The translations under genes were made by a program, and so were the position numbers. Below, piece after piece: positions 19,566-62,164 of a stretch of 64,000 nt of DNA. Origin of the DNA: an uncultured Bacilli bacterium (GTDB lineage: Bacteria > Bacillota_I > Bacilli_A > RFN20 > CAG-449); NCBI GenBank assembly GCA_944332525.1, contig CALVKD010000001.1, positions 49,841 through 113,840 on the forward strand, given 5' to 3'. Position 1 is the first letter of the stretch, and every line of letters begins with the position of its first letter. A model generated the notes under the pieces. The model saw only the letters and a list, made by a program, of their open reading frames with translations, was not told the origin of the DNA and did not search any database.

Positions 19566-19903
19566 TGGAAGAATTAACATTAAATTTAATCAAAAAAGTT
19601 GTTGAGGATAAAAAATGTGAAGACATCGCTGTTTATGACGTTAGAACATCTTCACCAATTTGCTCATATATTGTGATCGCAACTGTTAATAATGCGCGTC
19701 AAGGAAAAGCTGTTGCTGATCAAATCGAAGAGGAAGTCGAAAAATTAGGCGGACATATTCATCACGTTGAAGGAGATGAACGTACTCCATGGATTTTAAT
19801 TGATGAAGGAGATATTATAATTCATCTCTTTACGGAGCAGGAAAGACAAAGAATTAATCTCGATGAACTCATCACTCAGGTTAACAATCATGCAAGAATA
19901 TAA
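19565..19903 (+). CDS. rsfS: ribosomal silencing factor RsfS (Iojap)
   Basis: 112 aa at the conserved position after nadD/yqeK. The DIAVYDV...YIVIAT pattern is typical. Confidence 0.85.
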   Translation: MEELTLNLIKKVVEDKKCEDIAVYDVRTSSPICSYIVIATVNNARQGKAVADQIEEEVEKLGGHIHHVEGDERTPWILIDEGDIIIHLFTEQERQRINLDELITQVNNHARI

Positions 19904-20576
19904 TTTAATCATTATCGCGATGAAAGAGGAAGAAGAGGCATTTATTAAATCTCTTCCAATCGAAGTTAAAGATTTTAGCGATAATTTAAAAACATTCACA
20001 TACAATAATGAAAATTTTCTAATTATGCGCGGAGAAGTCGGAAAAGGATCGACGTGTTTTCATCTTGGTTATTTAGATGCAAGATATAAGATTAAAAGAA
20101 TATTTAATATCGGAACATCTGGTGGGCTTTTCAGTAAGATGAATATCGGCGACATTGTTATTGCTGATAAAGTTTGCTATTTCGATGTCGATGCTTGTGA
20201 ATTCGGCTATAATTATGGTCAAGTTCCAGGATTCCCATTATATTTTGAAACAGATCAAAAATATGTTGAAAGTAAGTTAAATGTTTTAAAAGAGGCGGAC
20301 TTTTCTTTTAAAATTTGGAATGGATTAATTGCATCTAGTGACACTTTCATGACAAGAGATAAGATTTCAAAATTTTCGATTTCAGAAATAAAGCCTTTCT
20401 GCGTTGAAATGGAAGCGGCAGCAGTAGGTCAGTCAGCGTACTTGATGAAAGTACCGTTCGTCATAATTAGATCGATTAGCGATATTATAACAAGACCGGC
20501 AAATGCTGATGATTCTGTAAAAAATATTGAGATTTGCTCAAAAAATTGCGCAGAAGCGCTATTAGCATTAATTTAG
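19890..20576 (+). CDS. mtnN: 5'-methylthioadenosine/S-adenosylhomocysteine nucleosidase
   Basis: PNP/UDP phosphorylase fold motifs (GTSGGL, EMEAAAV). ATG at 19890 overlaps the rsfS stop. Confidence 0.85.
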   Translation: MQEYNLIIIAMKEEEEAFIKSLPIEVKDFSDNLKTFTYNNENFLIMRGEVGKGSTCFHLGYLDARYKIKRIFNIGTSGGLFSKMNIGDIVIADKVCYFDVDACEFGYNYGQVPGFPLYFETDQKYVESKLNVLKEADFSFKIWNGLIASSDTFMTRDKISKFSISEIKPFCVEMEAAAVGQSAYLMKVPFVIIRSISDIITRPANADDSVKNIEICSKNCAEALLALI

Positions 20577-20684
20577 TATATCTTTAGTAAAATCATAGTT
20601 ATAGTAATAAATTAGTATTTATTTAGTATAAAGTAATATATTAGTAGAAAATTAGTTATCTTATACTTTTATTATTTTTAGTAG

Positions 20685-20716
20685 AAGAGAGTGTTTAATT
20701 TATCACTCTTTTTATT
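20685..20716 (+). terminator. putative intrinsic terminator after mtnN
   Basis: AAGAGAGTG, 10-nt loop, CACTCTTT, then TTTTATTT. Confidence 0.45.
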
Positions 20717-20751
20717 TGAATAATTATTCCTCTATTTTTATATTATTAATT

Positions 20752-20779
20752 ACTTCGCATAATTGATATTATGTAAAGA
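20752..20779. other. dif: candidate dif chromosome-dimer resolution site (XerC/XerD core)
   Basis: ACTTCGCATAA-TTGATA-TTATGTAAAGA: two 11-bp arms with a CATAA/TTATG dyad around a 6-bp centre. The XerD arm TTATGTAAA and left ACTTC match the Firmicute dif as I recall it. Lies in the convergent terminus-like gap, 1.4 kb from xerD. Confidence 0.5.
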
Positions 20780-20953
20780 ATAAAGAAATTTGATAATAAA
20801 AATCAAAAAGTAATTAGTAGTATTAAGATTAAAAAACTTATATACTACTAATTACTTACTTCATACTATATTTAAACTAATTTATTACTATTTAACTAAT
20901 AAATCACTAATTAACTACTAATGCATTAATTACGCCATAATTATGGCAAGTCA

Positions 20954-22144
20954 TTAATCTTTTAGTAACTCGTCTATAATTGATCCAATTTGAAAGTCTT
21001 TTTTCTCTAATTTAAAGTTTTCAATAATTGTTCTTCCCATATCAGCAAACGAATTTCTATCTTCAATTCTTCTCCCGTTTTTAAATGATTTGCTATATGC
21101 AATAAAAGGAACTTTTTCACGCGTATGATCTGACCCTGGCATTGTCGGATCGTTACCGTGATCAGCAGTGACAATCAACAAATCATCATCTTTTAATAGT
21201 TTAATTAAATCGCCTAAATCTTTGTCAAATTCTTCGATGCATTTTCCGTATCCAAGTGGATTTCTTCTATGTCCATATTCAGAATCAAATTCAACTAAAT
21301 TGACAAAGCATAATCCTTTAAAATCTTCTTTAGCGATTTCTTGAGTGATTTCCATACCGTTATGATTCGATACTGTTTTAAAAGTCTTAGTTACTCCCAC
21401 ACCATTAAATATATCATTAATCTTACCGACACAGATGACATCATAACCATGGTCTTTCATCGTTTCCATATAAGTATAAGACGATGGTGATAAAGCATAA
21501 TCGTGACGACGCGGCGTTCTAGTAAAGTTATCCTTATTTGTTCCAATAAATGGTCTAGCAATAACTCTTCCAACTTTATATTCCTCTTTCATACAAAGTT
21601 CTCTTGCGACTTCACATAAATGATAAAGTTCTGGCACAGAGACAACGGCTTCATTTGCTGCGAGCTGGAGGACTGAATCAGCTGATGTATAAAGAATAAT
21701 TTCTCCTGTCTTTAAAGTTCTTTCACCAAGTTGCTTAATAATCTCGGTTCCCGAGGCAGCAATATTACCAATATACTTTTTACCTGTTTTCTCTTCTAAT
21801 TCATCAATTAATTCTTGAGGAAATCCCGTATCAGTGAAAGTCTTGAAAGGTTTTGTAGTTAAGACACCCATCATTTCCCAATGTCCAGTCATCGTATCTT
21901 TGCCGTTGCTCTCTTCATTTAATGCACAGACATAGGAATTGGCATGCGAAACCTTTTCAGTTCCAAGAATATCACTATTTATATCGTATAATCCTAGCAT
22001 ATTCAACGTTGGGATATTTAATCCTTTGCAACGCTCTGACACGTGAACGAATGTATTTGCACCTTCATCATGGAATTTATCTGCGTCAGCCATCGCACCG
22101 ACACCTAACGAATCCATAACGATCAAAAATACTCTTTTAAACAT
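20954..22144 (-). CDS. deoB: phosphopentomutase
   Basis: [21 protein letters not shown] and TADHGNDP alkaline-phosphatase-superfamily motifs. 396 aa. Confidence 0.9.
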
Positions 22145-22156
22145 AATTCCTCCTAT

Positions 22157-23032
22157 TTATTTCATCATCTTATCATATTCACTAATTAAATGTTTTGTTT
22201 CGACGTGAGTATAAATTTCTGTTGTTTTAATATCGGCATGCCCAAGCAAAGCTTTAACTGTTGATAATGAACATCCATTTTCTAAAAGATGCGAAGCAAA
22301 GCAATGTCTAATAGTATGCGGCGATACCTTATTTATTATACCGATTCTTTCAAATGATTTCTTAATAATTAAATAAAATTCTTGTCGAGAAATCATTTTT
22401 CCGCGGTCAGATATAAATATCTGCTTTTCTTTTTGATATTTTGAATTATTTCTTACTCCTTCAAAATATTTAATTAGATAGTTTTTGGCTACTTCATCAA
22501 TTGGTATAACTCTTTCTTTCGCACCTTTACCCTTAACTTTTAATTGACTTTTTTCCAAAGAAACCTCATTGAGTGTCAAAGATAAAAGCTCACTAACGCG
22601 TAATCCGCATGCGTACATTAATTCTATCATTGCTTTGTTTCGAATATCTTTGCTTGTTTCTAAAGGCAAAGAATCAAGCATCTCACGCATTTTTTCTTTT
22701 GAGATGATATAAGGCAGATATTTTCCTTTTTTATGACTTTCTAATGAAGAAAAATCAAACGACAAATCAGCGTGCAAAGAAAGATAAACTAAGAAATTTT
22801 TAATAGATGAGAGCTTTCTCACAATGGATGAGGCCTCTAAATCTTCAGAATGGAGCTTTTCAAGAAAGTTATTTACTTTTTCGGGTGATAAGTCATCTTT
22901 TGTACTTTTATCGCCTAGGAAGGCCAAAAACTGCTTTAAATCATTTTTATAAGATTCAATAGTTGATTTAGATAGTCCTTTTTCGACAACGAGAGAAATC
23001 AAATATTCATCTATATATTCTTTAAGAAGCAT
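22157..23032 (-). CDS. xerD: tyrosine site-specific recombinase XerD/RipX
   Basis: R...HxxR...Y catalytic motifs (RHCFASHLLENGCSLSTVKALLGHADIKTTEIYTHV). Next to deoB, as ripX is in B. subtilis. Confidence 0.85.
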   Translation of the reverse strand: MLLKEYIDEYLISLVVEKGLSKSTIESYKNDLKQFLAFLGDKSTKDDLSPEKVNNFLEKLHSEDLEASSIVRKLSSIKNFLVYLSLHADLSFDFSSLESHKKGKYLPYIISKEKMREMLDSLPLETSKDIRNKAMIELMYACGLRVSELLSLTLNEVSLEKSQLKVKGKGAKERVIPIDEVAKNYLIKYFEGVRNNSKYQKEKQIFISDRGKMISRQEFYLIIKKSFERIGIINKVSPHTIRHCFASHLLENGCSLSTVKALLGHADIKTTEIYTHVETKHLISEYDKMMK

Positions 23033-24200
23033 CTTTTTTCTCCTTTAAATCGCTCGCTAGCATTAATATATTCTTTTTTACTTTATGATTAAGCTGTTTT
23101 ACCAAAAGTTTAGTAGAAGCCTTATTTTCTTTAGGAGCATCTAACAAAGTCATCTGTACATATTTATCTTTCTCATCAGTTAGTGATGAAAGACCCACTC
23201 CCGCTAAACGAAACAGTTGAGAAGAAAATAATTTATCAAAAAGTTCCATGGCTTTATCATAAATGACAACGTAATCATTAGTCGGTTCCGATAGAGTAAT
23301 CGAACGGGTAATGCTTTTAAAAGATGCATCTTTCAAAATTAAAGTCACAGTTTTACCGACTTTTTTATCTTTTTTAGCGCCTTGCGATATTTCTTTACTC
23401 TTTTGTAAAATCATCTGTCTTAATTCTTCATAATCGCTCGTATCATAAAGAAAAGTTGACGTTGATGAAATTGATTTAGCTTCTCTCTGGACAGGATTAA
23501 CCTCATCATCGCCCTCACCGCGAATCCAAGCTTTAACTTCATCATAGAATTTTCCGAGAATCTTTTTAAGTGAAGGTGATTCGTTGACAGCTAAATCGCC
23601 AATTGTATAAATACCGATTTCATTAAGCTTCGGGTAAGTCTTTTTGCCAATACCCCAAAAATCTTTAATTTTCAAGGGATATAATAACTCTTGAATGCGA
23701 TCTTTAGTGATAATGGTTATTCCCATCGGTTTTTTATAATCCGATCCCATTTTAGCTAAAAACTTGTTGTTTGCTAAACCGATTGATGACTGAAGCTTAG
23801 TCACTTGAAAGATTCTCTGCTGAAGCGACTGTAAATATCCATATTTATCTGTGACGTATGAAAGGATATCAGTTAAATCTAAATAAGCCTCATCAATTGA
23901 TACCTGTTCTAAAACATCGGTTACATTATTTTTAAGATAGGTGAAGAACTCCTCGCTTTTCTGATGATAAAAAGCAAAATCAACCGAGCGAATAATTACA
24001 TCTTTACAAGCTTTTTTAGCTAAATAAGTTGGCATTCCCGAATAAATTCCATACTTCCTCGCCTCATATGTTGAAGTAGAAACAATCCCGCGGCGAGTAT
24101 CGGAAGCGATAATTAAAGGTTTACCTTTGAGCGATGGTTCTTTTAAAATTGCGCAGGCAGCGAAGAATTGATTTATATCGATATGCATTATCCATTTCAT
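23022..24200 (-). CDS. dinB: DNA polymerase IV (Y-family)
   Basis: HIDINQFFAACA, SIDEAYLD and GIGKKT motifs. The real start may be the M at residue 5. Confidence 0.9.
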   Translation of the reverse strand: MKWIMHIDINQFFAACAILKEPSLKGKPLIIASDTRRGIVSTSTYEARKYGIYSGMPTYLAKKACKDVIIRSVDFAFYHQKSEEFFTYLKNNVTDVLEQVSIDEAYLDLTDILSYVTDKYGYLQSLQQRIFQVTKLQSSIGLANNKFLAKMGSDYKKPMGITIITKDRIQELLYPLKIKDFWGIGKKTYPKLNEIGIYTIGDLAVNESPSLKKILGKFYDEVKAWIRGEGDDEVNPVQREAKSISSTSTFLYDTSDYEELRQMILQKSKEISQGAKKDKKVGKTVTLILKDASFKSITRSITLSEPTNDYVVIYDKAMELFDKLFSSQLFRLAGVGLSSLTDEKDKYVQMTLLDAPKENKASTKLLVKQLNHKVKKNILMLASDLKEKKDAS

Positions 24201-24206
24201 AACTAA

Positions 24207-25859
24207 TTATTTACTGATAAGCGATCTTGCAGCTTCAATAGCTTCCTCGGTCACTTCTCCAGCTATCATTTTTGCCATAGCGACAATCTTCTCATCATCA
24301 GATAATGGATGAACAAGTGAATATGTCCGCCCATTTTCAGATATTTTTTTGACTTCGTAAGCCTGCTTCGATTGAGCGACTAAAGCCGGCAAGTGTGAAA
24401 TCAAAATAACCTGGGAATCAACGCTTAAGTCTCTCATCTTTTTTCCTAGCGATATCCCGACTTTTCCCGACACTCCAACATCGATTTCATCAAAAATAAT
24501 GACATCTTTTGGAAGTAATTTATTAAAGACATACTTTAACGCAAAATTTAAACGCGATGATTCACCTAATGAAGCGGTTTTATCAAGCATCAAAAAGCGT
24601 TCACCTTCATTTGCTCTTAACATAAAGACAATATCATCGTTACCATCTAAATTAAATTTCTCGCTCTTAAAGAAATCTATTCTAAATAAAGCGTTTTTAA
24701 AATCCAAATCAACCAGCGTTTTATTAATTTCTGAAGATAAATCCAGGCTATATTTTTGTCTAATAGCCGTGATTTTTATAGATAAATCAACTAATTTTTT
24801 TTCGCTTAAGAAAATTTTTGTGTTAATTTTTTCCATTGCCGATTGATAATCTTCAATTAACAATAATTGCTCTTTCATTTTATTTAGAGAATCTAGAATA
24901 TCCGCGGTTGTATACCCGTATTTTCTTCTTAATCCATGTAATGTGAAGAGGCGGTCTTTAACTTCTTCTAGCTCTCTTTTTTTATCTTCGGCTGATTCAA
25001 AAATATTTTTTATTTCACTATAGGAATCATCTAAATCGTAATAAGCTTCTTCAAATTGGTTTTTTAAAGCCTCAATCTCTTCATCATCAATTCGCGATAA
25101 AGCCTTTTTAGCCGAGTAAAGCGAGTCTTTTGCATTATCATAATAATTAAGAAATTCGCTTAAGGTATCGCTTGTCCTTTCAAAATTAGAAAGACTTTCT
25201 CGACGTTTTTCTAAATCTTCCATTTCGTTTTCGGCAATATGTAAATTTTCGAGTTCGGCGATATTTTTTTTCAAAGTCTCTTCATCAGATATTTGCTCTG
25301 CTTGCTCTTCTTTTTCTTTTTTTTCTTTTAAGGCTTGCTGATAAATAAAATATTCATCATGGTAGTCTGTGAAAATTTTCTTTTCTTCAGCTGATGATTT
25401 GTTTTTTAAGTAGAGATCTAACAAATTAAGCTGATTTTCACTATGCAGATAAAAGGCGTCTTTTTGCTGAGAATGGATATCGATAACGTAATCCATTACT
25501 TTTCGAAGCAAGGTTAACGACGCTGAGGCATTGTTAATTTTAATAGTATTATGATTATTTTTATCAATTGTTCGAGAAATGATTAAGGTATGAGAGGAAA
25601 GTTCTTTACCGATTAGCTCCGAGATGAAGTTTTCATTAACTTGGCTTTTTAAGATAAATGTGCCTTCAATAAAGGCTTTATCTTCTCCAGTTCGAATCTT
25701 TTCAAGTGATGATTTGCTGCCGGAAAGTAAGCTTATCGCGTCAATTAATATGGATTTTCCTGCACCAGTTTCCCCGATTAAAGCAATAAAAGAAGAATCT
25801 AGCGATAAATCTAGATCATCAATTAATGCAAAATGAGAAATTTTTAAACGAGTAAGCAT
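24207..25859 (-). CDS. recN: DNA repair protein RecN
   Basis: N-terminal Walker A GETGAGKS, a coiled-coil middle, and C-terminal IIFDEIDVGVSG. 550 aa. Confidence 0.9.
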   Translation of the reverse strand: MLTRLKISHFALIDDLDLSLDSSFIALIGETGAGKSILIDAISLLSGSKSSLEKIRTGEDKAFIEGTFILKSQVNENFISELIGKELSSHTLIISRTIDKNNHNTIKINNASASLTLLRKVMDYVIDIHSQQKDAFYLHSENQLNLLDLYLKNKSSAEEKKIFTDYHDEYFIYQQALKEKKEKEEQAEQISDEETLKKNIAELENLHIAENEMEDLEKRRESLSNFERTSDTLSEFLNYYDNAKDSLYSAKKALSRIDDEEIEALKNQFEEAYYDLDDSYSEIKNIFESAEDKKRELEEVKDRLFTLHGLRRKYGYTTADILDSLNKMKEQLLLIEDYQSAMEKINTKIFLSEKKLVDLSIKITAIRQKYSLDLSSEINKTLVDLDFKNALFRIDFFKSEKFNLDGNDDIVFMLRANEGERFLMLDKTASLGESSRLNFALKYVFNKLLPKDVIIFDEIDVGVSGKVGISLGKKMRDLSVDSQVILISHLPALVAQSKQAYEVKKISENGRTYSLVHPLSDDEKIVAMAKMIAGEVTEEAIEAARSLISK

Positions 25860-26093
25860 TTAAATATCCTTATCCTGACTTTCTTCTTCTGAGTAATTCT
25901 TCACTTCGCCATCTTCAACAATAAAAGATAACTTATTCATCGAATCATTTAATTCTTTACTTAAATCTTGGGAAAGCGTTTTTCCTTCTTGATACAAACT
26001 AATGCTTTCTTTCAAAGTTAAAGAATCCTTTTCTAAAGATTTGACGATTTCTTCTAACCTAGCAAGTTTTTCTTCAAATGTTTTATTTTCCAT
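25860..26093 (-). CDS. xseB: exodeoxyribonuclease VII small subunit
   Basis: 77 aa with LARLEEIVKSLE. Overlaps the upstream xseA. Confidence 0.85.
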   Translation of the reverse strand: MENKTFEEKLARLEEIVKSLEKDSLTLKESISLYQEGKTLSQDLSKELNDSMNKLSFIVEDGEVKNYSEEESQDKDI

Positions 26094-27357
26094 TCTTCTC
26101 CACCTTCTCTTTCACTTCTGCTTTAATTACCCCGTCTTTTAATTCTAAATCAATTAAATCTCCATTTTTAATTTCTTTTACGGAAGTAATAACCTTATTG
26201 TTTTTAATAATAACGCTATAGCCGCTTTCTAGCAGCGAAAACGGATCGAGATAAGTTAGTTTATCATTAAGGGAGTTAATCTTCGTTAAAAGCCCTTTTA
26301 TGCGTTCAATTATTAAATTAGACAAATTTTCTTGAGCATCACTATATGAATTATATTTTCTTTGCAAAATATTTTTTATTAAGAAATTTTGTTTGTCGTT
26401 AAGATGAGAAATTTCAGATTGCAAATTAAGTAAAATATTTTTTGGAGATTTTGATTCAATAATCTTCATTAAATATACTAATTTTTCGCTTAATAAACGA
26501 TATCTTTTCTCTAAGGAATTATCAAGGCTCTCACTTTGAAGTTTAACTAACCGCAATAGTTCTTCCTTACTCGGAACAACCTTATTAGCAGCATCGGTAG
26601 GAGTAATCGCCTTGCAGTCAGAGATATAATCAAGCAATGTTGTATCAATTTCATGACCGATTGCCGAGATTAGAGGTATCTTTAACTCATAGCAGCGCCT
26701 AATTAATCCTTCATCATTAAAAACGCGTAAATCTTCTTTTCCTCCGCCGCCGCGGGTAATAACTAAAACGTCTAATGGAAAATTTTCACTTTCATTAATA
26801 GCCCTAATAATATCATTAGGTGCACTTTCACCCTGAACTAATGCAGGAAAGATATACACTTCAACTTTAAATCGGTTCTTCAAAGTCGTTAAAAAATCAT
26901 GGATGGCCGCGCCTTTTTTAGCAGTAATTAATCCAATTTTTTTTGGCAAAAACGGTAAAGGTTTCTTAGGTTTAGAAAGAATACCCTCTTCAGCTAACTT
27001 CTTTTTCAAAAGAGCTAATTTTAGTAGATACTCTCCTTCACCATATGGAAACATCTCGGTCACATAGAGCTGGTATTGGCCGCTTTTTTCATAAACGCCC
27101 ACTGTTCCCTTAACTAGAACTAAATCGCCATTTTTAATAGGAAAATTAACTTTTCGTGCATGAAAAGCAAACATCGCACATTTGATAAGAGCATTTTCAT
27201 CGCTTAAGGAAAAGTAAAAATGACCGGTATAGTGTTTTGTTAACGAGGTAATTTCACCTAAAACCATGACAGACATCAGCCCGCCATCAGATTCAATCAG
27301 ACTCTTTATATGTAAAGTTAATTCCGATACGGTGAGATAGTTATTCATTTTAATCAA
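26083..27357 (-). CDS. xseA: exodeoxyribonuclease VII large subunit
   Basis: N-terminal OB fold (VMVLGEITS) and the catalytic region VLVITRGGGGKEDL. 424 aa. Confidence 0.9.
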   Translation of the reverse strand: MIKMNNYLTVSELTLHIKSLIESDGGLMSVMVLGEITSLTKHYTGHFYFSLSDENALIKCAMFAFHARKVNFPIKNGDLVLVKGTVGVYEKSGQYQLYVTEMFPYGEGEYLLKLALLKKKLAEEGILSKPKKPLPFLPKKIGLITAKKGAAIHDFLTTLKNRFKVEVYIFPALVQGESAPNDIIRAINESENFPLDVLVITRGGGGKEDLRVFNDEGLIRRCYELKIPLISAIGHEIDTTLLDYISDCKAITPTDAANKVVPSKEELLRLVKLQSESLDNSLEKRYRLLSEKLVYLMKIIESKSPKNILLNLQSEISHLNDKQNFLIKNILQRKYNSYSDAQENLSNLIIERIKGLLTKINSLNDKLTYLDPFSLLESGYSVIIKNNKVITSVKEIKNGDLIDLELKDGVIKAEVKEKVEKNGK

Positions 27358-31135: not shown

Positions 31136-32053
31136 TTATTCAACTTGATTATCGCCGCTTCCGTCTTTACTAATAAAGACATTTTCAACGTTTTTAATCA
31201 AGGCGAACATTTTTTCATGAAAACTTCGCATACTCAAAATTTTCTTTTCAAAAATTTCTGATGATATGCGGTGGAAAATTCCATCCACAAAAGTCATTTT
31301 TAAATCTTTAACAAAGAGCAAGAGATGCTCATCATCAAAAACGAGATTGATTTTATGATTAAAATAATTATCGATTTCAATAACTGATTTAATACCTCCA
31401 TTATCCATAAAATCATAAATTTTATTACCTGAAGCATAGATATAAAAATTATCAGATAATGAATAAGAGGCAAAACCATAAGCATTAAGAGCTTCATTTT
31501 CATAATATTTTTTTGCATATACTTCCTCATCGCAGATTTGAAAGAAGAAGTTTGTCGCGACATTAAATTCGGAAATAAATATCATTCCGTATCCAGTTTT
31601 AACGTGATCATTATAACGGACGAGATAAATATCAAACGATCGTTCGCTAGTAGCATCAGAATAAGCCTCTAGATAATAGAATTTTTTCAGAAAAAATATT
31701 TTTTTTAAATAGTTATCGCGTTCTTGATTAATGATGATGTTATTGTCTAAAAGATATATTTCTTCAAGTTTGCATTCATTTAGAAAAATCTTCTTGTATT
31801 CGTCGAGATAGATTTTATTAAGCCTTAGGCTATAGAGAAATGCTGATAAAACAATTAAGATGGTAATCAAGACAAAATATAAACTAACAAAATATATTAA
31901 TCCGTGAATAATTTCCCTCTTTTCTAGATATTTTAATAAAAAATATCCACCAAATAGTAAAATTGCGAAAACGACGATAAAAATCGAGAGTTTTAGAAAA
32001 GAAAAAAACTTGATTCTATTTAATTGCTGAACGCGGACTTCATAGTTTTTCAT
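31136..32053 (-). CDS. hypothetical membrane protein: two N-terminal TM helices and a domain of about 230 aa of unknown function
   Basis: 305-aa ORF with hydrophobic segments at about 15-40 and 50-76. No recognisable motif. Last gene of the jetABC-like operon. Confidence 0.45.
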   Translation of the reverse strand: MKNYEVRVQQLNRIKFFSFLKLSIFIVVFAILLFGGYFLLKYLEKREIIHGLIYFVSLYFVLITILIVLSAFLYSLRLNKIYLDEYKKIFLNECKLEEIYLLDNNIIINQERDNYLKKIFFLKKFYYLEAYSDATSERSFDIYLVRYNDHVKTGYGMIFISEFNVATNFFFQICDEEVYAKKYYENEALNAYGFASYSLSDNFYIYASGNKIYDFMDNGGIKSVIEIDNYFNHKINLVFDDEHLLLFVKDLKMTFVDGIFHRISSEIFEKKILSMRSFHEKMFALIKNVENVFISKDGSGDNQVE

Positions 32054-32107
32054 AATTCAATTATAGAAGATGCGTTTTAACATTTAAACAGAGATCAAGT
32101 ATTTTAA

Positions 32108-32557
32108 TTAATCATTGTATCGAGAATTATCGAGATTCTTTTTTCTTTTTTTCCTCTTTCTAACGAAGATTAAGCAGATGATGAATAATCCGCCATAGAT
32201 AATTAACATAAAGTAATTATTCCAAGCTAGGAAATTCGTCAAAGGCTCTGTGTTATTAACAAAATTTCCAATAAACACAGCAAGAGCATTGCTTAAGTAA
32301 GCATGAAACGTTGCTAATGGAAGAGATATAGCATTTAACGCCTGATCTAGAAATGCTCCAATATGGTTCAAATCTTTCAAATTATCGGTTAATACACCGG
32401 TCGATGATAGATAGTAAAGCCCATTGGAAAGGAAGAAAGCAAAGAAAAAGAAGGTGATAAAACGTGTTTTTTTAGCTATCACGACGATGATAACCATCAA
32501 AACAATTAATATGATAAGAAATATCAGACTATTTAGCAAAAGGTCTAATCCATCCAT
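32108..32557 (-). CDS. hypothetical small polytopic membrane protein with a basic C-terminal tail
   Basis: 149 aa, 3-4 hydrophobic segments, C-terminal RKRKKRKK. AGGAGA SD sits 11 nt after the jetC-like stop, so translational coupling is likely. Confidence 0.4.
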   Translation of the reverse strand: MDGLDLLLNSLIFLIILIVLMVIIVVIAKKTRFITFFFFAFFLSNGLYYLSSTGVLTDNLKDLNHIGAFLDQALNAISLPLATFHAYLSNALAVFIGNFVNNTEPLTNFLAWNNYFMLIIYGGLFIICLIFVRKRKKRKKNLDNSRYND

Positions 32558-32568
32558 AATAGTATCTC

Positions 32569-35500
32569 CTATTTACCATGATACACGAATGGATCCATAT
32601 GCGAAACATTTTCTTGAGGTTTTCTTGTAACAACTAAGGTTCTATCGACAACCGTTGAGATATCGAGAACTTTCTCTGGTGGTGCCGAAATGATTACTTG
32701 CAAATCGAAATCTTTTAAAATCTTAATGGATTCAACAATTCTGTTACGATCCATCTTTGAGAAAGCTTCATCAAAGATAACTAATCTGATGCAGTTAGAA
32801 ATATTCTTATTGGCCTTAACGCGGTAAAGCTGTGAGAAAGAAGCTAAGATTGAGATATAGAATGGTGTTTGCGTTTCACCGCCAGAAGCCTTTTTAATAT
32901 TTCTCGCTAAGGAATAGACGGCTCCGTCTGGCTTTTTAACTTTTAAGTCGAAGATTAAATATGAGCGATAATCTGTGAACTTTTCAATATTTTGAGCGAC
33001 TTGTTCAGCTTTATCCTTACCTTCTCCATCAGAGATTAAACGGAATAAATTATCCATGACATCTTTATGCTTGAGCAAGAAAGCTTCATCATCGCTATCG
33101 ACATCGAGCAACATCTCATCGGTAATCATATTGTAATAATCGATATATTGAGGATTTGGTTGAATTGTAAATTCATAGGAATCCTGACCGAAATGCGCAT
33201 CTTTTAAAGCTTCGTTAAGGTCACCGATTTGTAAACGCGCCTGTTCAATAGCCGTTTTTAATTTAAAAATGAAATCATCCTTAAATTCTTTAGTTGCCTT
33301 TTGATGTGCATCTTCAATTTTGACTAAGTACTGAGGAAGTTTGACATCGCGCAGCGTTGTTAATTCTCTCTCAAAATCATCATTATCTTCTTTAGTGATA
33401 TCATATGATAATTTATAGGTAATAACGTAAGAAGACCGACGATCTTTCAATTGTTCATTAAGGTTTCTAATTCTGTTTTGAACCTTAGAGTAGATATCAT
33501 CATATTTTAAACGGATATCAGCTAATGAGAGATTGCTTGCGAGTTCGTTATCAAAGGTTGGTTTTGCTGTTTGCTCAACCCATTCCGTATCAAATGAATT
33601 CTCAATTTCTTCCATGTAAGCTGAGGATTTCTTAACTTCTTGCGGAATCTTTTCTTCTTTAGTGACTTTAATATTATTCTGTAAAGCACCTTTTTCGAGA
33701 ATTAATTCATTTTTCTGATTGTTAAGTTGTTCGATATCGGTATCAATTCTCTTAATCTTCGTATCAGTAGTTTGCAGATCTTGACTCGTACCAGCTTTTA
33801 ATTCTTCTTCGTACTGTTTAAGATTATTCTTTAATGAAGCGAGTAAATCGCTGCTATCGAGCTGATTGAGGCAAATCATCTGCTCAGATTGCGACATAAT
33901 ATCGAGTTCTTTAGCTTCAGATAAAGTATCAACTAATTCTTTTAATGCTCCGATTGATTTAGCTTCTAAATCGAGTTCTTTCATTCTCTGATCGCGGACT
34001 TCACGCGATACCGATCTTCCAATCAACGGATAACGGTAAAGGCGATCTGGTATGACAAAGGAAGCAAATGAACGATATCCAATGCAGGAAGGACAAATAC
34101 CATGTCCGGATTCTCTAGCTTCTTGGAAAGTTTCACATTTTGTTAATCGACCAATTAAGAAATTAGTATAATCGCGGGCACCTTTATGATCGGTAATAAT
34201 TTCTTCGGCCAAAGAATTTTCTTCAGCTTCAAAATTATGCTGAGCTAACGCTCTCTCATCGACTAAACCCGTCCGGTGATAGCCGTTTCTCTTCATAATA
34301 CCCGGCAATAACTTATTAGCAACTTCGTAATATTTATCCTTAACGAATAAATTAAGTTTCTGAGCGGAAATAAATCCCTCAATTGCATTAATCCAGCGCT
34401 TATTACGAATATCGACCAAATCAGCGTAAATTAAGACATCAACTTTTTCATGGAAATGATCTTCAAGAGCCAATTTTAATTGATTTCTGACATTGAGGAA
34501 AGCATCGTCATAGTATTTACCGCTGCTTGAAGTAACTAAAGTCTGCTTTTGCTGGCTAATTCTATTGATAACCATACCGATAGATGACTTTAAGACGCTA
34601 TATTCTTCAATAACAACATTTTTAAAATCACTAATAGCCGATGAAAAGTTTTTGAATAAGTCTGGTGTCAAAGAGCCTAAATTCAAGGCTTCTTTGGTTG
34701 CCATTAACGCTTTATCAAGATTGGCACATTCTAATTCAAGATGCTTCAAAGACTCTAATACTTTGTTATCATCAGTATGCTCAGCAGAACTCAAGCATAA
34801 TGAATTAATTTTATTTTCATAATTTAAGAAATTATTAACATACGTATTAATGCGAGTATATAAAGCTTGAAGATTTTCTTCAATCTCGCAAACTTTTCTT
34901 TCAGCATCTTGATAAGATTTTCTTAAATCTTGAGTTAATTTATAATTATCATTAGAAAATTTATAAGCGATTAAGGTTTGCTTTTGTTCTTCAAGAGCTT
35001 CAATATCGCTTTCGATTTCCCTAATTGAAGAATCAATTTCAGCAATTCTTTCCTCAGCGCGGCTGATATCATTATGATAAGATGCGATATAATCAGAAGA
35101 AATCTGTAAGAAAATTCTCTTCGAGATATAGGAAGCTAAGGACATTTCTTTACGTTTATCAACTATCTGTTGATAAATATTATGAATTTCTTCAAGCGAT
35201 TTAATTTTTACCATCATCTCATCGGCTTCGATTTTTAAGCGTTCATATGAGGTAATATTTGATTTCATCGATTCAATATTAATATCATTAGGAACATCGC
35301 AAACATATTCGGTGATAAAGGATTCAATATTGGTGATAGGTATAAAGGAAACAGCCTTCTTAAAGAGTGAGAAGTATTTTTCCTTAAGATTACCAAATTT
35401 TTCTTTAATGACCCCTTGGTATTGCGCGTTTGAATCACAGAAAATAAATTTATCGCTATTATAATTTGCACTAAAATACTCTTGCAAAGTCTTTTGTGAC

Positions 35501-35937: not shown

Positions 35938-36566
35938 TCTGCATCCTCCATAAATTCTTCATCCGGAAGTGATTCAACTTGCTTATATAGGCTTTGAATT
36001 ACTTCGTAATCAACCACAAATGCAATTGAAGGATTAATATAGAAAGTTAAATTTTTCTCATAAAAATCCCCGCTTATTCTCGTTATAATATTATGTTGTT
36101 CTAAAAAGCGATATGACGATTCAAGCGATGAATACGAGACCCTTTTATCTTGACGAATTAAATGCATATTAATTAAGCACTGCATTAATTCATGGCTAGT
36201 AAAACGGACGACTTGATTAAGTGCGTCATCATTATTTTGAGTTTCGTAGACATATCTTAAAGCAAAAATAACTAAGGATGTTTTTAAATCCAATTTCAAA
36301 TGATTTTCTTCATATTCATTTTTAATAGAAATTACCCCGCGCGATGAATCTTTATTAACAATCCATCCAGATAAAGAGAGATAGTTTGAAACTAAATCAA
36401 GATGGCGCTCAATAAAGGAATACTCTTTACTCGCCCGCATCATCTTCGCATTGCGGTCGTAATAATCTCTGAGAATAAAACTTTTCAGCATCAAAGTATT
36501 AACCACATGGGCGAATTCCTCTTTTTCGACATTGCGCAATTGTTCATATTCTTCTAGCATCGTCAA
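35934..36566 (-). CDS. MukE/MksE/JetB-like kite subunit candidate
   Basis: 210 aa, overlapping both neighbours by 4 nt. Size and position match the kite subunit of MukFEB-like operons. Assigned by context, not by motif. Confidence 0.45.
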   Translation of the reverse strand: MTMLEEYEQLRNVEKEEFAHVVNTLMLKSFILRDYYDRNAKMMRASKEYSFIERHLDLVSNYLSLSGWIVNKDSSRGVISIKNEYEENHLKLDLKTSLVIFALRYVYETQNNDDALNQVVRFTSHELMQCLINMHLIRQDKRVSYSSLESSYRFLEQHNIITRISGDFYEKNLTFYINPSIAFVVDYEVIQSLYKQVESLPDEEFMEDAE

Positions 36567-41319: not shown

Positions 41320-43734
41320 TTAATCCTCGCTTTGGTTATCTTCATTTAAGTATTCATCCGACAGGGTGCGCCTGCCGTTTTCTTTAATTATTATTCCGTC
41401 TTCTTCAAGAGCATCAAGCAAACCATCTGCTCTAGCAAATCCGATTTTAAAGGCGTTTTGAATTTTTGTCGGAGTGCATTTTCCAGTTTCTAAAACGTAA
41501 TTTTTAACCGCTGGATAAAGGTCATCATCATGGAAATCTTTAACGCTTTCATTAATTAAATCATAAGCTGTTGGAGCTTTCGATGATAAATCGAATTTTG
41601 GATCATAATGGACTGACGCATATTTCTTAATATGCTCACAGACGGCATAAATTTCTTTTCCGTCAATATAAGCTGACTGAACTCTGAGCAACGATTTCGG
41701 CGAAGGCAACCGGGCGAGCAAGTCTCCTTTTCCCATTAAGTTTTCCGCGCCATCTTCATCGATGATAATTCGTGACTCTAACGATGAAGAAACCGACAAA
41801 GCGATTCTTGACGGGATATTCGCCTTGATTTCACCAGTAATTATTTTAGCTGATGGTCTTTGGGTGGCAATAACCATATAAATTCCGCAAGCTCGTGCTT
41901 TTTGAGCTAAGCGCTGAATGAATTTGCTCGTCTCTTTGTCGCCATCGGACATAAAGTCAGCAAACTCATCACAGATCATCACGATATAAGGGATTTTCGG
42001 ATAATTCTTTTCTTCACAGACTTCGAGGTATTCTTTGTAGTTAGCAGCCCCTTCGCCTTTTTCAGCAAATAAATCATAACGGCTTTCCATTTCTTCAACT
42101 AATTTTTTCAAGGCGATTTTTCCTTGATCGGTCGAAGTGATAACCGGGCAGAGCAAATGCGGCAAATTTTGGTAACGCAAGAATTCAACGCGCTTAGGGT
42201 CGATAAGCATAAGTTTTAACTCATCGGGTTTATTTCTCATTATTAATGAAGTGATAATATTATGGATAAATACTGATTTACCAGAACCAGTAGTTCCGGC
42301 GATTAATAGGTGAGGCATATCATCAAGCTTGCAAGATATAACTTTACCGGAGATATCCTTACCTAATGGGAATAGCAATTTATCCTTTGCATTATCGGCG
42401 ATTGACTGCATGCAATCTTTAAATGAAACTAAATTCGAAGTTTTGTTTCCAACCTCAATTCCGCATGTATCCTTGCCTTCAATAATTGTTTCAATTCTTA
42501 CTGTTTTATTTCCTTCTAAACGGACTCCTAAATCAGTCTCGAGATTATTGAGGACACTAGTTTTAACATTGTGATTAAGTTTTACGTCAAAGCGAGTTAC
42601 TGATGGACCAATAGTATAAGATATAACTGATGCGCCGATATCAAAGTCGCGGAAACATTCATTAATTTTCTTTGCTCTTTCATCGGCAATCGCAATTTTT
42701 TCTTGTAAATTATTATTTACACTTCTATCTTTTAGAAGGTCAAGGCTCGGATAGACATAAGGGCCTTTATATTCTTCTTCAGGAGTGATTGTTTCAATAG
42801 TTTCTTTTTCAGATTTTTTATTAAAGAAAGAATCAAACTTATCGTTTTTATAGGTATCAATAATCCGTGGCTCTTTCTTAACTGTTTTCTTTTCTTCCAT
42901 TTTCTTCATCGCTTCTTCATGTGAAGGATCAGAGAAAGTAAAAGAATTAGGCTTAATTTCCTCTTTAACTAAATTTACCTCTTCTGGAAGTGGTTCCTTA
43001 ATACTTTCAACTAGTTTTTCACTAGGTTGAGCTATTTTCTTTGTCGGTACGTAAGCTTCCATTTCTTCTTCGATCTTTTCGACATGTATTTCTCTTTTTA
43101 AAGGAGATTCAGTGCTTGGCGAAGAATAATCTGTCTCGGTCTTTTTTAGTTCCTTTTCTTTCTCACGAATAGTTTTGACTTCATTTTTTACGCTGACTAG
43201 ATGTGAAATCAACTGGCTTATCGGAAGGAGTAAAACAAAGATAGCTCCTAAGAAAATTAACAAAGCCGAAATAATCAAGGTACCAATACTAGTAAAGGCA
43301 GTATTTAATGCAGCAGAGAAAAAATACCCGATAAACCCTCCGTTAAGAGAAGAGACGATATCACCAAAAGAGGTAAAAGATAAACCGCTTGATTTTATTG
43401 AATTAGTTAAATCGCTATAAAAAGAGAAAAAGTTATTCATATTTAATCCATCGCTTTGGCTTAACCCAATAGTTAATCCAAAGAAAAGTAAAATAACTCC
43501 CGTCAGAGAAATAATTTTCACCTTTTTGCGAATAAAGATTTTATTAAGTCCATCAAGAAAAAGAAAAACGCTAACTAAGAAATAAGTAGCTCCAAAAATG
43601 TATGCCAAAACAAATGTTAGAAATTTAGAAATTAATCCAACATTTATAAAGGCTAAAACAGAAATAACGATTTCTAAAATACCTAATAATATTCTTGTAA
43701 CCCTAGTCGAGGTCTGATTTTTTTCTTTCTTCAT
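41320..43734 (-). CDS. ftsK: DNA translocase FtsK/SpoIIIE
   Basis: N-terminal TM helices, a Glu/Lys-rich linker, and a motor domain with GTTGSGKS. 804 aa. Confidence 0.9.
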   Translation of the reverse strand: MKKEKNQTSTRVTRILLGILEIVISVLAFINVGLISKFLTFVLAYIFGATYFLVSVFLFLDGLNKIFIRKKVKIISLTGVILLFFGLTIGLSQSDGLNMNNFFSFYSDLTNSIKSSGLSFTSFGDIVSSLNGGFIGYFFSAALNTAFTSIGTLIISALLIFLGAIFVLLLPISQLISHLVSVKNEVKTIREKEKELKKTETDYSSPSTESPLKREIHVEKIEEEMEAYVPTKKIAQPSEKLVESIKEPLPEEVNLVKEEIKPNSFTFSDPSHEEAMKKMEEKKTVKKEPRIIDTYKNDKFDSFFNKKSEKETIETITPEEEYKGPYVYPSLDLLKDRSVNNNLQEKIAIADERAKKINECFRDFDIGASVISYTIGPSVTRFDVKLNHNVKTSVLNNLETDLGVRLEGNKTVRIETIIEGKDTCGIEVGNKTSNLVSFKDCMQSIADNAKDKLLFPLGKDISGKVISCKLDDMPHLLIAGTTGSGKSVFIHNIITSLIMRNKPDELKLMLIDPKRVEFLRYQNLPHLLCPVITSTDQGKIALKKLVEEMESRYDLFAEKGEGAANYKEYLEVCEEKNYPKIPYIVMICDEFADFMSDGDKETSKFIQRLAQKARACGIYMVIATQRPSAKIITGEIKANIPSRIALSVSSSLESRIIIDEDGAENLMGKGDLLARLPSPKSLLRVQSAYIDGKEIYAVCEHIKKYASVHYDPKFDLSSKAPTAYDLINESVKDFHDDDLYPAVKNYVLETGKCTPTKIQNAFKIGFARADGLLDALEEDGIIIKENGRRTLSDEYLNEDNQSED

Positions 43735-56099: not shown

Positions 56100-56140
56100 C
56101 GTTTTTCCTCAAAAAAAGGTCGCAATAGCGACCTTAATTA

Positions 56141-58762: not shown

Positions 58763-58892
58763 ATATTTCCTCCTAAAAGTTCATAATCAAGAACAATTCC
58801 TTTTATATATTAATAATATATAAACAATTGCCTTTTTAATATACAACTAATATTATCTATTTTCAACAATAAGAGCGACTTTTCTAAGCCAT

Positions 58893-61876: not shown

Positions 61877-62164
61877 TTACATTTCTACTGGATAAACAGA
61901 AGCTTGTTTTCTCTTTTTGCCAACTCTTTCGAATTTGACAATTCCATCAACTGTAGCGAAGATTGTGTCATCCCCACCGCGCATGCAATTTACACCTGGA
62001 TAAATTTTTGTGCCGCGTTGACGATAAATGATTGAACCAGCAGTAGCGAATTCACCATCAGATTTTTTTGCGCCTAATCTCTTTGATTCTGAATCACGGC
62101 CGTTCTTAGTAGAACTGACACCTTTCTTCGAAGCAAATAATTGAATATTTAATAAAAACTTCAT
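61877..62164 (-). CDS. rpmA: 50S ribosomal protein L27 with an N-terminal propeptide ([15 protein letters not shown])
   Basis: Conserved FASKKG cleavage context and L27 core. GAGGTG SD before the ATG at 62164. Confidence 0.9.

What the first reader, a model, noticed from the sequence alone, without database searches (positions are those of the whole stretch)
20572..20953. Probable replication terminus: gene-strand switch plus a dif-like XerCD site next to xerD
Every CDS from 20954 to the window end, about 45 genes, is on the − strand. CDSs to the left are predominantly on the + strand. The two blocks converge on a 377-bp AT-rich gap. Inside it, ACTTCGCATAA-TTGATA-TTATGTAAAGA (20752-20779) has the 11-6-11 architecture of a dif core, with a CATAA/TTATG dyad. 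It matches about 21 of 28 positions of the B. subtilis dif as I recall it (ACTTCCTAGAATATATATTATGTAAACT), including the conserved XerD arm TTATGTAAA. The xerD/ripX homolog is 1.4 kb away and ftsK is 20 kb away, also on the − strand.
Basis: partly seen in the sequence, partly recalled or inferred. Interest (0 to 1): 0.75.

Follow-up and report, generated by a model that had tools for sequence, protein, structure and literature searches.

The report
Chromosome dimer-resolution site with flanking repeats
The 28-base sequence is a genuine dif site, where a circular bacterial chromosome is un-knotted after replication; that part is ordinary, but it is framed by conserved mirror-image arrays of an 11-base repeat that no described system explains.

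Summary
ACTTCGCATAA-TTGATA-TTATGTAAAGA lies at 20752-20779 in a 377-bp, 17% GC gap. Two gene blocks converge there, and cumulative G-C peaks at 20827-20834. An XerD-like gene lies 1.4 kb away and an FtsK gene with a gamma domain 20.5 kb away.

The real evidence is comparative. Three lineages fetched through XerD protein homology (43-47% identical) keep a dif in the same gap, with conserved arms and a freely varying 6-bp centre. The same arms occur once per locus in at least 120 genomes of many phyla, including 60-72% GC genomes.

"Replication terminus" is likely but only partly testable. The skew comes mostly from gene orientation, and only 64 kb is available.

One feature is new. dif is flanked by opposed arrays of TTAGTA-type units with 11-bp phasing, nine on each side and all pointing at dif. 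They are unique in the window and more conserved than neutral sites. They recur next to dif in many low-GC Bacilli. In most of these relatives, though not here, a DnaA box sits about 85 bp from the XerD arm. Their function is unknown.

The parts
19863..20576 (+). Last gene of the + strand block: 5'-methylthioadenosine/S-adenosylhomocysteine nucleosidase-like (PNP_UDP_1). Its TAG stop codon (20574-20576) is part of the first repeat unit.
   Evidence: Pfam; NCBIfam TIGR01704 at 120 bits, above the 73.8 cut-off; same gene in the same position in L001, L004, L125, L128 and L131.
20573..20684 (+). Left repeat array. Nine TAGT cores at 20574, 20585, 20596, 20602, 20613, 20624, 20642, 20653 and 20679, with consensus wwTTAGTAw. 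Spacing is mostly 11 bp, and all units are on the + strand pointing towards dif.
   Evidence: Polarity 9:0, and 0 of 20000 shuffles reach 9 cores. It is the only such cluster in 64 kb. Identity to L001 is 88% against 65% at 4-fold degenerate sites, P=1e-6. The same feature is present in L001, L083, L004, L047, L086 and L125.
20684..20713 (+). Hairpin with a 10-bp stem whose 3' arm runs into a T-tract. Probably the intrinsic terminator of the + strand operon.
   Evidence: Predicted energy -10.6 kcal/mol, z -2.67. Identity to L001/L083 is 93-97%. The simple terminator scan missed it because the loop is 10 nt.
20752..20779 (+). dif core site. Putative XerC arm ACTTCGCATAA (20752-20762), central region TTGATA (20763-20768), putative XerD arm TTATGTAAAGA (20769-20779).
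20843..20921 (-). Right repeat array. Nine ACTA cores on the + strand at 20844, 20847, 20865, 20876, 20887, 20895, 20906, 20914 and 20917, which read as TAGT on the - strand pointing towards dif. The unit consensus across lineages is cTACTAAaTAt, with 11-bp phasing. Two oppositely oriented cores lie at 20815 and 20818.
   Evidence: Polarity 9:2, and 1 of 20000 shuffles reaches 9 cores. Identity to L001 is 76% against 65% neutral, P=0.011. An array at the same place on the XerD-arm side occurs in 27 of 61 distinct low-GC dif loci.
20934..20947 (-). GCCATAATTATGGC hairpin immediately after the deoB stop codon. It has no T-tract, so it is a weak terminator candidate.
   Evidence: Predicted energy -9.0 kcal/mol, z -1.9. 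Partly conserved in L001/L083.
20954..22144 (-). First gene of the - strand block: phosphopentomutase (deoB).
   Evidence: NCBIfam NF003766 at 534 bits, above the 256 cut-off.
22157..23032 (-). Xer-family tyrosine recombinase, best match XerD. It is the only Xer gene in the window.
   Evidence: Pfam; NCBIfam; phmmer against all window ORFs found only this gene; homologues are named XerD by NCBI.
41320..43734 (-). FtsK/SpoIIIE DNA translocase with a gamma (KOPS/XerD-interacting) domain.
   Evidence: Pfam FtsK_alpha, FtsK_SpoIIIE and FtsK_gamma (45 bits, above the 30.6 cut-off).

Best explanation
window:20752-20779 is the chromosomal dif site of an uncultured low-GC Bacilli bacterium. It sits where the two oppositely oriented gene blocks, and most probably the two replication arms, converge.

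Mechanism, inferred from the well-studied XerCD/FtsK systems of E. coli and B. subtilis: XerC binds the ACTTCGCATAA arm and XerD the TTATGTAAAGA arm of each sister copy. FtsK, anchored at the septum, pumps DNA towards dif and activates XerD through its gamma domain. Two pairs of strand exchanges across the 6-bp centre then turn a chromosome dimer into monomers.

The core is embedded between two mirror-image arrays of an 11-bp-phased TTAGTA-type repeat, and these arrays are under purifying selection. I infer that an unidentified DNA-binding protein binds them along one face of the helix on both sides of dif and modulates access to it, either as a polar barrier or as an architectural accessory. 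The existence and conservation of the arrays are shown. Their binding partner and role are not.
For: 1. Exact 11-6-11 site, unique in the window.

2. Three lineages retrieved through XerD protein homology, independently of any DNA pattern, keep the same convergent mtnN/deoB-xerD gap. These are L004 (47% identical XerD), L125/L128 (47%) and L131 (43%). Each has a dif there: ACTTCGCATAA-TCTATA-TTATGTAATAA, ACTTCGCATAA-GCACCA-TTATGTAAAGT and ACTTCGTATAA-TAACTA-TTATGTAAACA. The arms are conserved and the centre varies freely, as expected for a Xer core site.

These span many phyla and include dozens of genomes at 60-72% GC, where such an AT-rich 19-specified-base pattern cannot arise by chance.

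4. Against the closest relative (L001; 4-fold degenerate sites 65% identical, n=678), dif is 96% identical, while the spacers next to it are 67-72% identical, i.e. neutral.

5. The gene-strand switch and the cumulative G-C maximum at 20827-20834 both fall here. Intergenic + strand skew is +0.09 on the left and -0.20 on the right. The two lagging-strand genes have a lower coding-strand GC3 skew (-0.21) than leading-strand genes (-0.12 and -0.06).

6. An XerD-like gene and an FtsK with a gamma domain are present.

7. The arrays show polarity, uniqueness in the window, 11-bp phasing and conservation above neutral. They recur next to dif in many lineages regardless of which gene lies beyond them.
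Against: No XerC gene lies in the 64 kb, and the Xer gene scores below NCBIfam's XerD equivalog cut-off.

Single copy per replicon and a position opposite oriC could not be tested. The source genome is not in the protein-indexed collection, and only 64 kb is available.

The GC skew is dominated by codon positions 1-2, which track gene orientation. The replication-specific component rests on only two lagging-strand genes and 3.3 kb of intergenic DNA.

Simple identity to model dif sites discriminates poorly in this AT-rich DNA.

For the arrays, no candidate binding protein was found in the window: no RTP, Rok-like or other unexplained DNA-binding ORF.
Confidence: 0.88

Rival explanations
1. The site is dif, but replication forks do not normally fuse here. 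The strand switch marks only the boundary of two co-oriented gene blocks, and termination occurs some kilobases away.
For: Most of the skew comes from codon positions 1-2 (GC12 skew +0.16 to +0.21 on every coding strand; GC3 skew is negative on all). Kono et al. found that dif lies near the skew shift point, within about 1.4% of the genome, but argued that termination is not at dif (PMC3025954).
Against: Intergenic skew and the GC3 difference between leading-strand and lagging-strand genes both change sign or size as expected for convergence at this gap. The G-C maximum is within 80 bp of dif.
Confidence: 0.25
2. The opposed arrays are polar replication-fork barriers. A terminator protein bound to them lets a fork enter the roughly 160-bp interval that holds dif but not leave it, by analogy with Tus-Ter and with the RTP-bound IRI/IRII inverted repeats of B. 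subtilis.
For: The repeats are mirror-oriented directly around the G-C maximum and dif. They are conserved in polarity across lineages. Known fork traps are two opposed groups of polar sites around dif (PMC10331603).
Against: There is no RTP homologue in the window or in any low-GC locus (best E 0.4). The units are 11 bp and tandem, unlike the ~30-bp A+B Ter sites. In most lineages only the XerD-side array exists, and a one-sided trap would not work. No terminator-protein gene lies next to the arrays, unlike rtp and tus.
Confidence: 0.1
3. The arrays are a nucleoprotein platform, together with the DnaA box found in relatives. A nucleoid-associated or winged-helix protein, with DnaA in relatives, coats one helical face next to the XerD arm. 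This would organise or gate the Xer/FtsK reaction, or anchor or insulate dif, for example from read-through transcription of the converging operons.
For: Phasing is 11 bp (31 adjacent spacings of 11; pairwise 11 occurs 40 times and 22 occurs 21 times). The array is always on the XerD-arm side. A DnaA-box-like TT[AT]TCCACA lies at +55..+100 bp, mode +85, in 18 of 27 array-bearing loci against 0 of 34 without an array; Fisher P=4e-9, or 2e-8 after collapsing strains. WACTA is the preferred 5-mer of B. subtilis Rok, which shares 36 genomic regions with DnaA (PMC6212790). The arrays stay next to dif when the neighbouring gene differs.
Against: The window lineage itself has no DnaA box. No Rok-like or other candidate protein was found in the window. 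WACTA is not specifically depleted in the window (Markov ratio 0.86-1.0). Chromosomal dif is not known to need accessory sequences, and plasmid cer/psi accessory sequences lie on the XerC side (PMC5357621).
Confidence: 0.4
4. The arrays have no function of their own. They would be AT-rich low-complexity DNA expanded by slippage in a gap that tolerates it, or simply stop-codon-rich 3' trailers of the two converging operons.
For: The gap is 17% GC. The first unit overlaps the mtnN stop codon. Unit number varies between lineages from 2 to 15.
Against: The left array is 88% identical to L001 against 65% at neutral sites, P=1e-6, while the adjacent spacers evolve neutrally. Polarity is strict and phasing is 11 bp. 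Clusters of 5 or more units per 100 bp occur only within 300 bp of dif in about 385 kb of low-GC loci. The arrays co-occur with a precisely positioned DnaA box. On the right the array lies downstream of the hairpin, so it is not simply 3' UTR.
Confidence: 0.15
5. The 28-mer is not the host dif. It would be a chance palindrome, or the attachment scar of a Xer-exploiting mobile element (IMEX) or plasmid-type cer/psi site.
For: The same arm pattern occurs on 41 viral contigs. Identity to model dif sites is only 20-21/28.
Against: There is one copy only and no phage or plasmid genes nearby. All neighbours are housekeeping genes. BLAST of the gap against phage and plasmid collections found nothing. 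The site is conserved at the orthologous position across deep divergence. None of the viral hits carries the arrays.
Confidence: 0.03

Closest known systems
B. subtilis dif with CodV (XerC) / RipX (XerD) and SpoIIIE/SftA
   Same: A 28-bp 11-6-11 site. The XerD arm TTATGTAAA is identical over 9 of 11 positions and ACTTC opens the left arm, giving 21/28 overall. It lies in the terminus region of a Bacilli chromosome. An XerD-like recombinase and an FtsK-family translocase are encoded.
   Different: The left arm (TTCGCATAA) resembles the proteobacterial/pan-bacterial XerC arm (GCGCATAA) more than B. subtilis CCTAGAA. The xerD gene is 1.4 kb from dif, in synteny conserved across the clade. Flanking phased repeat arrays are not described for B. 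subtilis dif.
E. coli dif / XerCD / FtsK-KOPS
   Same: Core architecture, the CATAA/TTATG dyad (20/28 identical), and an FtsK with a gamma domain.
   Different: The flanking repeat is not a genome-wide strand-skewed motif like KOPS. Outside the gap, TTAGTA occurs 3 forward and 4 reverse on the left arm and 10 forward and 10 reverse on the right arm.
Replication fork traps: RTP with the IRI/IRII Ter sites of B. subtilis, and Tus-Ter of E. coli
   Same: Opposed polar DNA elements bracket the terminus and dif. From memory, and not verified in a paper here, B. subtilis Ter sites also contain ACTAA motifs.
   Different: No RTP or Tus homologue was found (Pfam). The repeats are tandem 11-bp units rather than a 30-bp bipartite site. 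The array is one-sided in most relatives. No fork-arrest data exist.
Rok binding regions of B. subtilis (Rok plus DnaA)
   Same: The core of the repeat, (A/T)ACTA, equals Rok's preferred AACTA/TACTA. Rok regions are co-occupied by DnaA, and relatives place a DnaA box beside the array (PMC6212790).
   Different: Rok is confined to some Bacillus species. No Rok-like ORF was seen in the window, and there is no specific genome-wide depletion of the motif. Rok sites are not known to be phased arrays or linked to dif.
Accessory sequences of plasmid Xer sites (cer with ArgR/PepA, psi with ArcA/PepA)
   Same: Protein-binding DNA of 100-200 bp next to a Xer core site that shapes the recombination complex (PMC5357621).
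   Different: Those lie on the XerC side of plasmid sites and replace FtsK control. Here the conserved array is on the XerD side of a chromosomal site, and an FtsK gamma domain is present.

Membership tests
XerCD-type chromosomal dif site | A 28-bp core: two 11-bp arms in imperfect dyad symmetry around a 6-bp centre. | tested here: met
   ACTTCGCATAA-TTGATA-TTATGTAAAGA with a CATAA/TTATG dyad.
XerCD-type chromosomal dif site | Sequence agreement with established dif sites. | tested here: met
   21/28 to B. subtilis and 20/28 to E. coli, which is weak on its own. Both arms are identical to a pattern found once per locus in at least 120 genomes of many phyla, including 60-72% GC genomes.
XerCD-type chromosomal dif site | Conserved at the orthologous position in relatives, with constrained arms and a free central region. 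| tested here: met
   L004, L125/L128 and L131 (protein-anchored) plus L001/L083. dif is 96% identical against 65% at neutral sites.
XerCD-type chromosomal dif site | A single copy per replicon. | tested here: inconclusive
   Unique in the 64-kb window at up to 3 mismatches, and one match per retrieved stretch in relatives. The whole replicon is not available. The exact 26-mer is absent from JGI metagenome contigs.
XerCD-type chromosomal dif site | Located at the GC-skew shift point / convergence of the two replication arms, opposite oriC. | tested here: inconclusive
   The gene-strand switch and the G-C maximum fall within 80 bp of dif. The skew is largely driven by gene orientation, and the position relative to oriC is not testable.
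XerCD-type chromosomal dif site | The genome encodes both XerC and XerD. | tested here: inconclusive
   One XerD-like gene is present (289 bits, below the 329.6 cut-off; XerC model 265 bits). There is no second Xer gene in the window, and the rest of the genome is unavailable.
XerCD-type chromosomal dif site | An FtsK-family translocase with a gamma domain to activate XerD. | tested here: met
   Residues 736-788 of the FtsK protein encoded at window:41320-43734 match FtsK_gamma (45 bits).
XerCD-type chromosomal dif site | Binding, cleavage and dimer resolution by the cognate recombinases. | not testable with these tools
   This requires experiments.
RTP/Ter or Tus/Ter replication fork trap (considered for the arrays) | A terminator protein of the RTP or Tus family is encoded. 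| tested here: not met
   phmmer with verified B. subtilis RTP gave a best E of 0.4 over 2066 ORF segments of the window and all low-GC loci. No such Pfam family appeared among the window ORFs. The rest of the genome was not examined.
RTP/Ter or Tus/Ter replication fork trap (considered for the arrays) | Polar sites in two opposed groups bracketing the terminus. | tested here: met
   9:0 and 2:9 polarity around dif in the window. Most relatives have only one side.
RTP/Ter or Tus/Ter replication fork trap (considered for the arrays) | Orientation-dependent fork arrest. | not testable with these tools
   This requires 2D gels or marker-frequency analysis.
KOPS/SRS-type FtsK-orienting polar sequences (considered for the arrays) | A motif strongly strand-skewed along each replication arm, switching at dif. 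| tested here: not met
   Outside the gap, TTAGTA is unskewed: 3:4 on the left arm and 10:10 on the right arm.
Rok-type nucleoid-protein binding region (considered for the arrays) | Enrichment of AACTA/TACTA in bound regions, depletion of the motif elsewhere in the genome, and a Rok homologue encoded. | tested here: inconclusive
   The motif is enriched in the arrays. There is no specific depletion elsewhere (Markov-3 ratio 0.86 and 1.00). No Rok-like ORF lies in the window. The whole genome was not tested.

The most novel reading that the evidence does not exclude
In a broad clade of uncultured low-GC Bacilli, dif may not be a bare 28-bp site. It may be the centre of a conserved nucleoprotein module made of 11-bp-phased cTACTAAaTAt repeats pointing at dif and, in most lineages, a DnaA box fixed about 85 bp from the XerD arm. 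In the window's lineage the box has been lost and the repeats have expanded to nine units on each side in mirror orientation. If this module is a polar barrier or a DnaA-linked device, it would be a third, independently evolved termination/dimer-resolution control system beside Tus-Ter and RTP-Ter, and the first to place DnaA at dif.
Probability: 0.2. Interest if true: 0.85.

Novelty: new variant of a known kind. Interest (0 to 1): 0.45.

Why it matters
The dif call is routine annotation, but it fixes the terminus region of a poorly known gut or environmental Bacilli lineage.

The flanking module is what matters. Fork traps are known only from Tus- and RTP-bearing groups, and most bacteria are thought to lack one (PMC10331603). 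No accessory DNA is known for chromosomal dif. No link between DnaA boxes and dif turned up in the literature searched.

A conserved, polar, helically phased repeat array placed exactly at dif, with a DnaA box at a fixed distance in relatives, is a concrete and testable candidate. It could show how termination, dimer resolution and possibly initiation control are coupled in Firmicutes-like bacteria.

Tried and rejected
- **Exact-protein look-up of the window's XerD:** not on record, so the source genome could not be extended.
- **Rfam scan, ORF scan and promoter/terminator scan of the gap:** nothing beyond chance.
- **BLAST of the gap against plasmid and phage collections:** no match. The viral-contig scan found 41 dif-like sites, none with the arrays, so an IMEX or plasmid origin was rejected.
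- **Arrays as KOPS:** rejected, because there is no strand skew outside the gap.
- **Arrays as DnaA-trios or an origin:** rejected. Genes converge here, the G-C sum is at a maximum rather than a minimum, spacing is 11 bp rather than 3 bp, the distance from the box varies from 9 to 21 bp in relatives, and the window has no DnaA box.
- **RTP homologue:** none found.
- **Rok-style motif depletion:** not seen.
- **The four unannotated ORFs near the Wadjet-like genes:** these are lipoprotein, membrane or OB-fold-like proteins, not obvious DNA-binding candidates.
- **Literature search for Ter sequence strings:** unproductive.
- **Scan of JGI metagenome contigs for the exact 26-mer:** no hit, so it gave no test of copy number.
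Full report
**Observation**

The sequence ACTTCGCATAA-TTGATA-TTATGTAAAGA is at window:20752-20779 on the + strand. It is unique in the window even with three mismatches, and no shuffle produced a match.

It lies in a 377-bp gap (20577-20953) of 17% GC. The gap has no ORF of 20 codons or more and no Rfam match.

On the left, 18 of 20 ORFs are on the + strand. The two exceptions are ispG and plsY. On the right, every non-nested ORF to the end of the window, about 38, is on the - strand.

The last + gene is an MTA/SAH-nucleosidase-like gene and the first - gene is phosphopentomutase. Next comes a Xer-family recombinase at 22157-23032. Its best NCBIfam hit is XerD at 289 bits, with XerC at 265 bits, and both are below the equivalog cut-offs. 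An FtsK with alpha, motor and gamma domains lies at 41320-43734. No second Xer gene is in the window.

All other genes are chromosomal housekeeping genes, including parE/parC, hisS, aspS, eno, leuS, pheST, ftsAZ and ruvAB.

**Is the site more than chance?**

In this AT-rich DNA it is weak. Other 28-mers in the window reach 19/28, and against E. coli dif the site (20/28) ties with a chance match at 62147. The decisive evidence is comparative.

1. The window's XerD has one close relative (95% identical) and then only homologues at 49% identity or less. Loci fetched through those proteins, with no DNA pattern involved, keep the same convergent arrangement of mtnN, a gap, and deoB-xerD. Each gap holds a dif:
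   - L001/L002: ACTTCGCATAA-TTGATA-TTATGTAAATA
   - L004: ACTTCGCATAA-TCTATA-TTATGTAATAA
   - L125/L128: ACTTCGCATAA-GCACCA-TTATGTAAAGT
   - L131: ACTTCGTATAA-TAACTA-TTATGTAAACA

. The arms are constrained and the six central bases vary freely. That is what is expected of a Xer core site.

2. The pattern ACTTCGCATAA-N6-TTATGTAA was scanned across one genome per species. The loci come from Bacilli, Clostridia, Gamma-, Beta- and Deltaproteobacteria and others. Dozens of these genomes have 60-72% GC, where such an AT-rich pattern cannot occur by chance. The window's arms therefore equal a pan-bacterial dif consensus.

3. Against L001, 4-fold degenerate sites of six flanking genes are 65% identical (n=678). 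dif is 27/28 identical (P=1e-4), while the DNA immediately beside it is 67-72% identical, which is neutral.

I conclude that this is the chromosomal dif (confidence about 0.9).

**Is it the replication terminus?**

Cumulative G-C is maximal at 20827-20834, and the 2-kb skew changes sign exactly here. Most of this skew reflects gene orientation. Codon positions 1-2 have a skew of +0.16 to +0.21 on every coding strand, while GC3 skew is negative on all coding strands.

The replication-specific signal is modest but points the right way. GC3 skew is -0.21 for the two lagging-strand genes against -0.12 and -0.06 for leading-strand genes. Intergenic + strand skew is +0.09 on the left and -0.20 on the right.

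Published surveys place dif within about 1.4% of the genome from the skew shift point, but argue that forks need not fuse at dif itself. Convergence of the two replication arms at this gap is therefore likely (about 0.75-0.8). The position relative to oriC and the copy number of the site in the whole replicon could not be tested.

**What else is in the gap**

- **Left of dif:** nine TAGT cores (consensus wwTTAGTAw) lie on the + strand at 20574-20679, with none in the opposite orientation.
- **Right of dif:** nine ACTA cores lie at 20844-20917, against two in the opposite orientation.

Both arrays therefore point at dif. Shuffles of each flank reach these counts 0 and 1 times in 20000. These are the only clusters of the motif in 64 kb. 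Outside the gap the motif shows no strand bias, so it is not KOPS-like.

Adjacent cores are most often 11 bp apart. Across ten lineages there are 31 adjacent spacings of 11 bp, and among all pairs 11 bp occurs 40 times and 22 bp 21 times. This puts the units on one face of the helix.

The left array is 88% identical to L001 (P=1e-6 against the neutral 65%) and the right array is 76% identical (P=0.011).

A hairpin with a T-tract at 20684-20713 lies between the left array and dif. It has a predicted energy of -10.6 kcal/mol and is 93-97% conserved. It is probably the terminator of the + strand operon. On the right, a weaker hairpin at 20934-20947 lies between the deoB stop codon and the array. 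The arrays are therefore not simply transcribed 3' trailers.

**The arrays are linked to dif, not to the neighbouring genes**

In about 385 kb of low-GC loci, clusters of five or more units per 100 bp occur only within 300 bp of a dif and in the correct polarity.

The array on the XerD-arm side is present when the adjacent gene is deoB, an ABC permease or a PemK-like gene. The left array is confined to part of the clade.

A metagenome scan for dif plus two ACTA cores 11 bp apart returned 19 loci from about 12 lineages. The unit consensus is cTACTAAaTAt.

A DnaA-box-like TT[AT]TCCACA also appeared in nearly all of these loci, although the pattern did not ask for it. It is always in the same orientation and starts 73-86 bp (mode 85) after the 28-mer. 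In some lineages there are up to four boxes, including perfect TTATCCACA and TGTGGATAA.

Of 61 distinct low-GC dif loci, 27 have the repeat pair. Eighteen of these 27 have the box at +55..+100, against 0 of the 34 loci without the pair. Fisher P is 4e-9, or 2e-8 after collapsing strains.

The window's own lineage (window, L001/L083, L004) has no box within 300 bp of dif. Instead it has longer arrays on both sides.

**What the arrays might be**

- **Fork trap:** no RTP homologue exists in the window or in any low-GC locus. The units are unlike the ~30-bp bipartite Ter sites, and most lineages have only one array. I rate a classical fork trap as unlikely (about 0.1).
- **Origin:** the region is not an origin. 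Genes converge, the G-C sum is at a maximum, and the repeats are 11 bp apart rather than 3 bp apart.
- **Rok-like binding:** the core (A/T)ACTA equals the preferred 5-mer of B. subtilis Rok. Rok is a minor-groove-binding winged-helix nucleoid protein that shares 36 chromosomal regions with DnaA (PMC6212790). This is a suggestive parallel, given the DnaA box in relatives. However, no Rok-like ORF is in the window, and the motif is not specifically depleted elsewhere in the window.
- **Plasmid-type accessory sequences:** those of cer and psi lie on the XerC side, not the XerD side.

My best inference (about 0.4) is a protein-coated, helically phased platform next to the XerD arm. It would gate or organise the Xer/FtsK reaction, or insulate dif. 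A non-functional origin by slippage is disfavoured by the conservation, polarity, phasing and box co-occurrence (about 0.15). Literature searches found no description of DnaA boxes or phased repeats at dif.

**Verdict**

The terminus interpretation is likely but not fully testable from 64 kb.

The dif core is an ordinary new member of a very well known family. The conserved mirror-image repeat arrays around it, and the dif, DnaA-box and repeat module of related lineages, are not explained by any described system. They make the locus a new variant that deserves experimental follow-up.

Noticed in passing
L020, L047, L052, L086, L125-L129, L131-L133, L175-L180, L183, L187, L192, L193 (73-86 bp after the dif 28-mer, on the XerD-arm side): A DnaA-box-like TT[AT]TCCACA lies at a nearly fixed distance (mode +85 bp) from dif, always in the same orientation, followed by 2-4 phased cTACTAAaTAt units. 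L125 and L176 carry 3-4 boxes, including perfect TTATCCACA and TGTGGATAA. The box is absent from the window's own lineage. It is present in 18 of 27 array-bearing loci and 0 of 34 loci without an array.
   Followed up: partly
window:32569-37993 (-), plus 31136-32557: Wadjet/Mks-like condensin genes lie 12-17 kb from dif: JetA (36563-37993), JetB/DUF4194 (35934-36566) and a 1122-aa SbcC/JetC-like ATPase (32569-35937). They are followed by two membrane-type ORFs with no family hit where a JetD would be expected. The block is conserved in L001.
   Followed up: no
window:11919-16458, 23022-27357, 54567-60487, 62936-63631: The terminus-proximal 64 kb is rich in chromosome-maintenance genes: parE/parC, dinB, recN, xseA/B, ftsK, recJ, ruvAB and radC. 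The xerD-deoB linkage next to dif is conserved down to 43% XerD identity. In the published survey, xerD genes were mostly near the replication origin rather than near dif (PMC3025954).
   Followed up: no
L076:3325-3576, L020:1720-2385, L040:4862-5344: In three relatives, a gene inserted between the dif module and the next conserved gene looks PemK/MazF-like by eye (a VCPLK motif). It ends right at the repeat array. This fits islands accumulating at the terminus. No family search was run on it.
   Followed up: no
L134-L174 (IMG/VR viral contigs): Forty-one viral contigs, mostly of mid to high GC, carry an exact match to the dif arm pattern. They are presumably Xer-exploiting integrative elements or prophage calls that include host dif. 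None has the repeat arrays.
   Followed up: partly
L047 (CAVJWU010000003.1) and L036 (DUGS01000016.1): L047 is labelled 'Azospirillum sp. CAG:239', but it has 28% GC and the Bacilli-type mtnN/dif/deoB arrangement with arrays. L036 is labelled Methanosarcina sp. but carries a bacterial-type dif on a 3.8-kb contig. Both labels look unreliable, through mis-binning or legacy naming.
   Followed up: no
L125:138-911, L129:3985-4758, L130:640-1413: Relatives with 47% identical XerD encode Spo0A, and in L129 a SpoIVB-type peptidase, just upstream of dinB-xerD. Part of this clade is therefore probably spore-forming, and the 'Acholeplasmatales' guess is not supported.
   Followed up: no
window:62147-62174 (-): A chance 20/28 match to E. 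coli dif lies inside a coding region. It shows that plain identity to a model dif is not a safe criterion in AT-rich genomes.
   Followed up: yes
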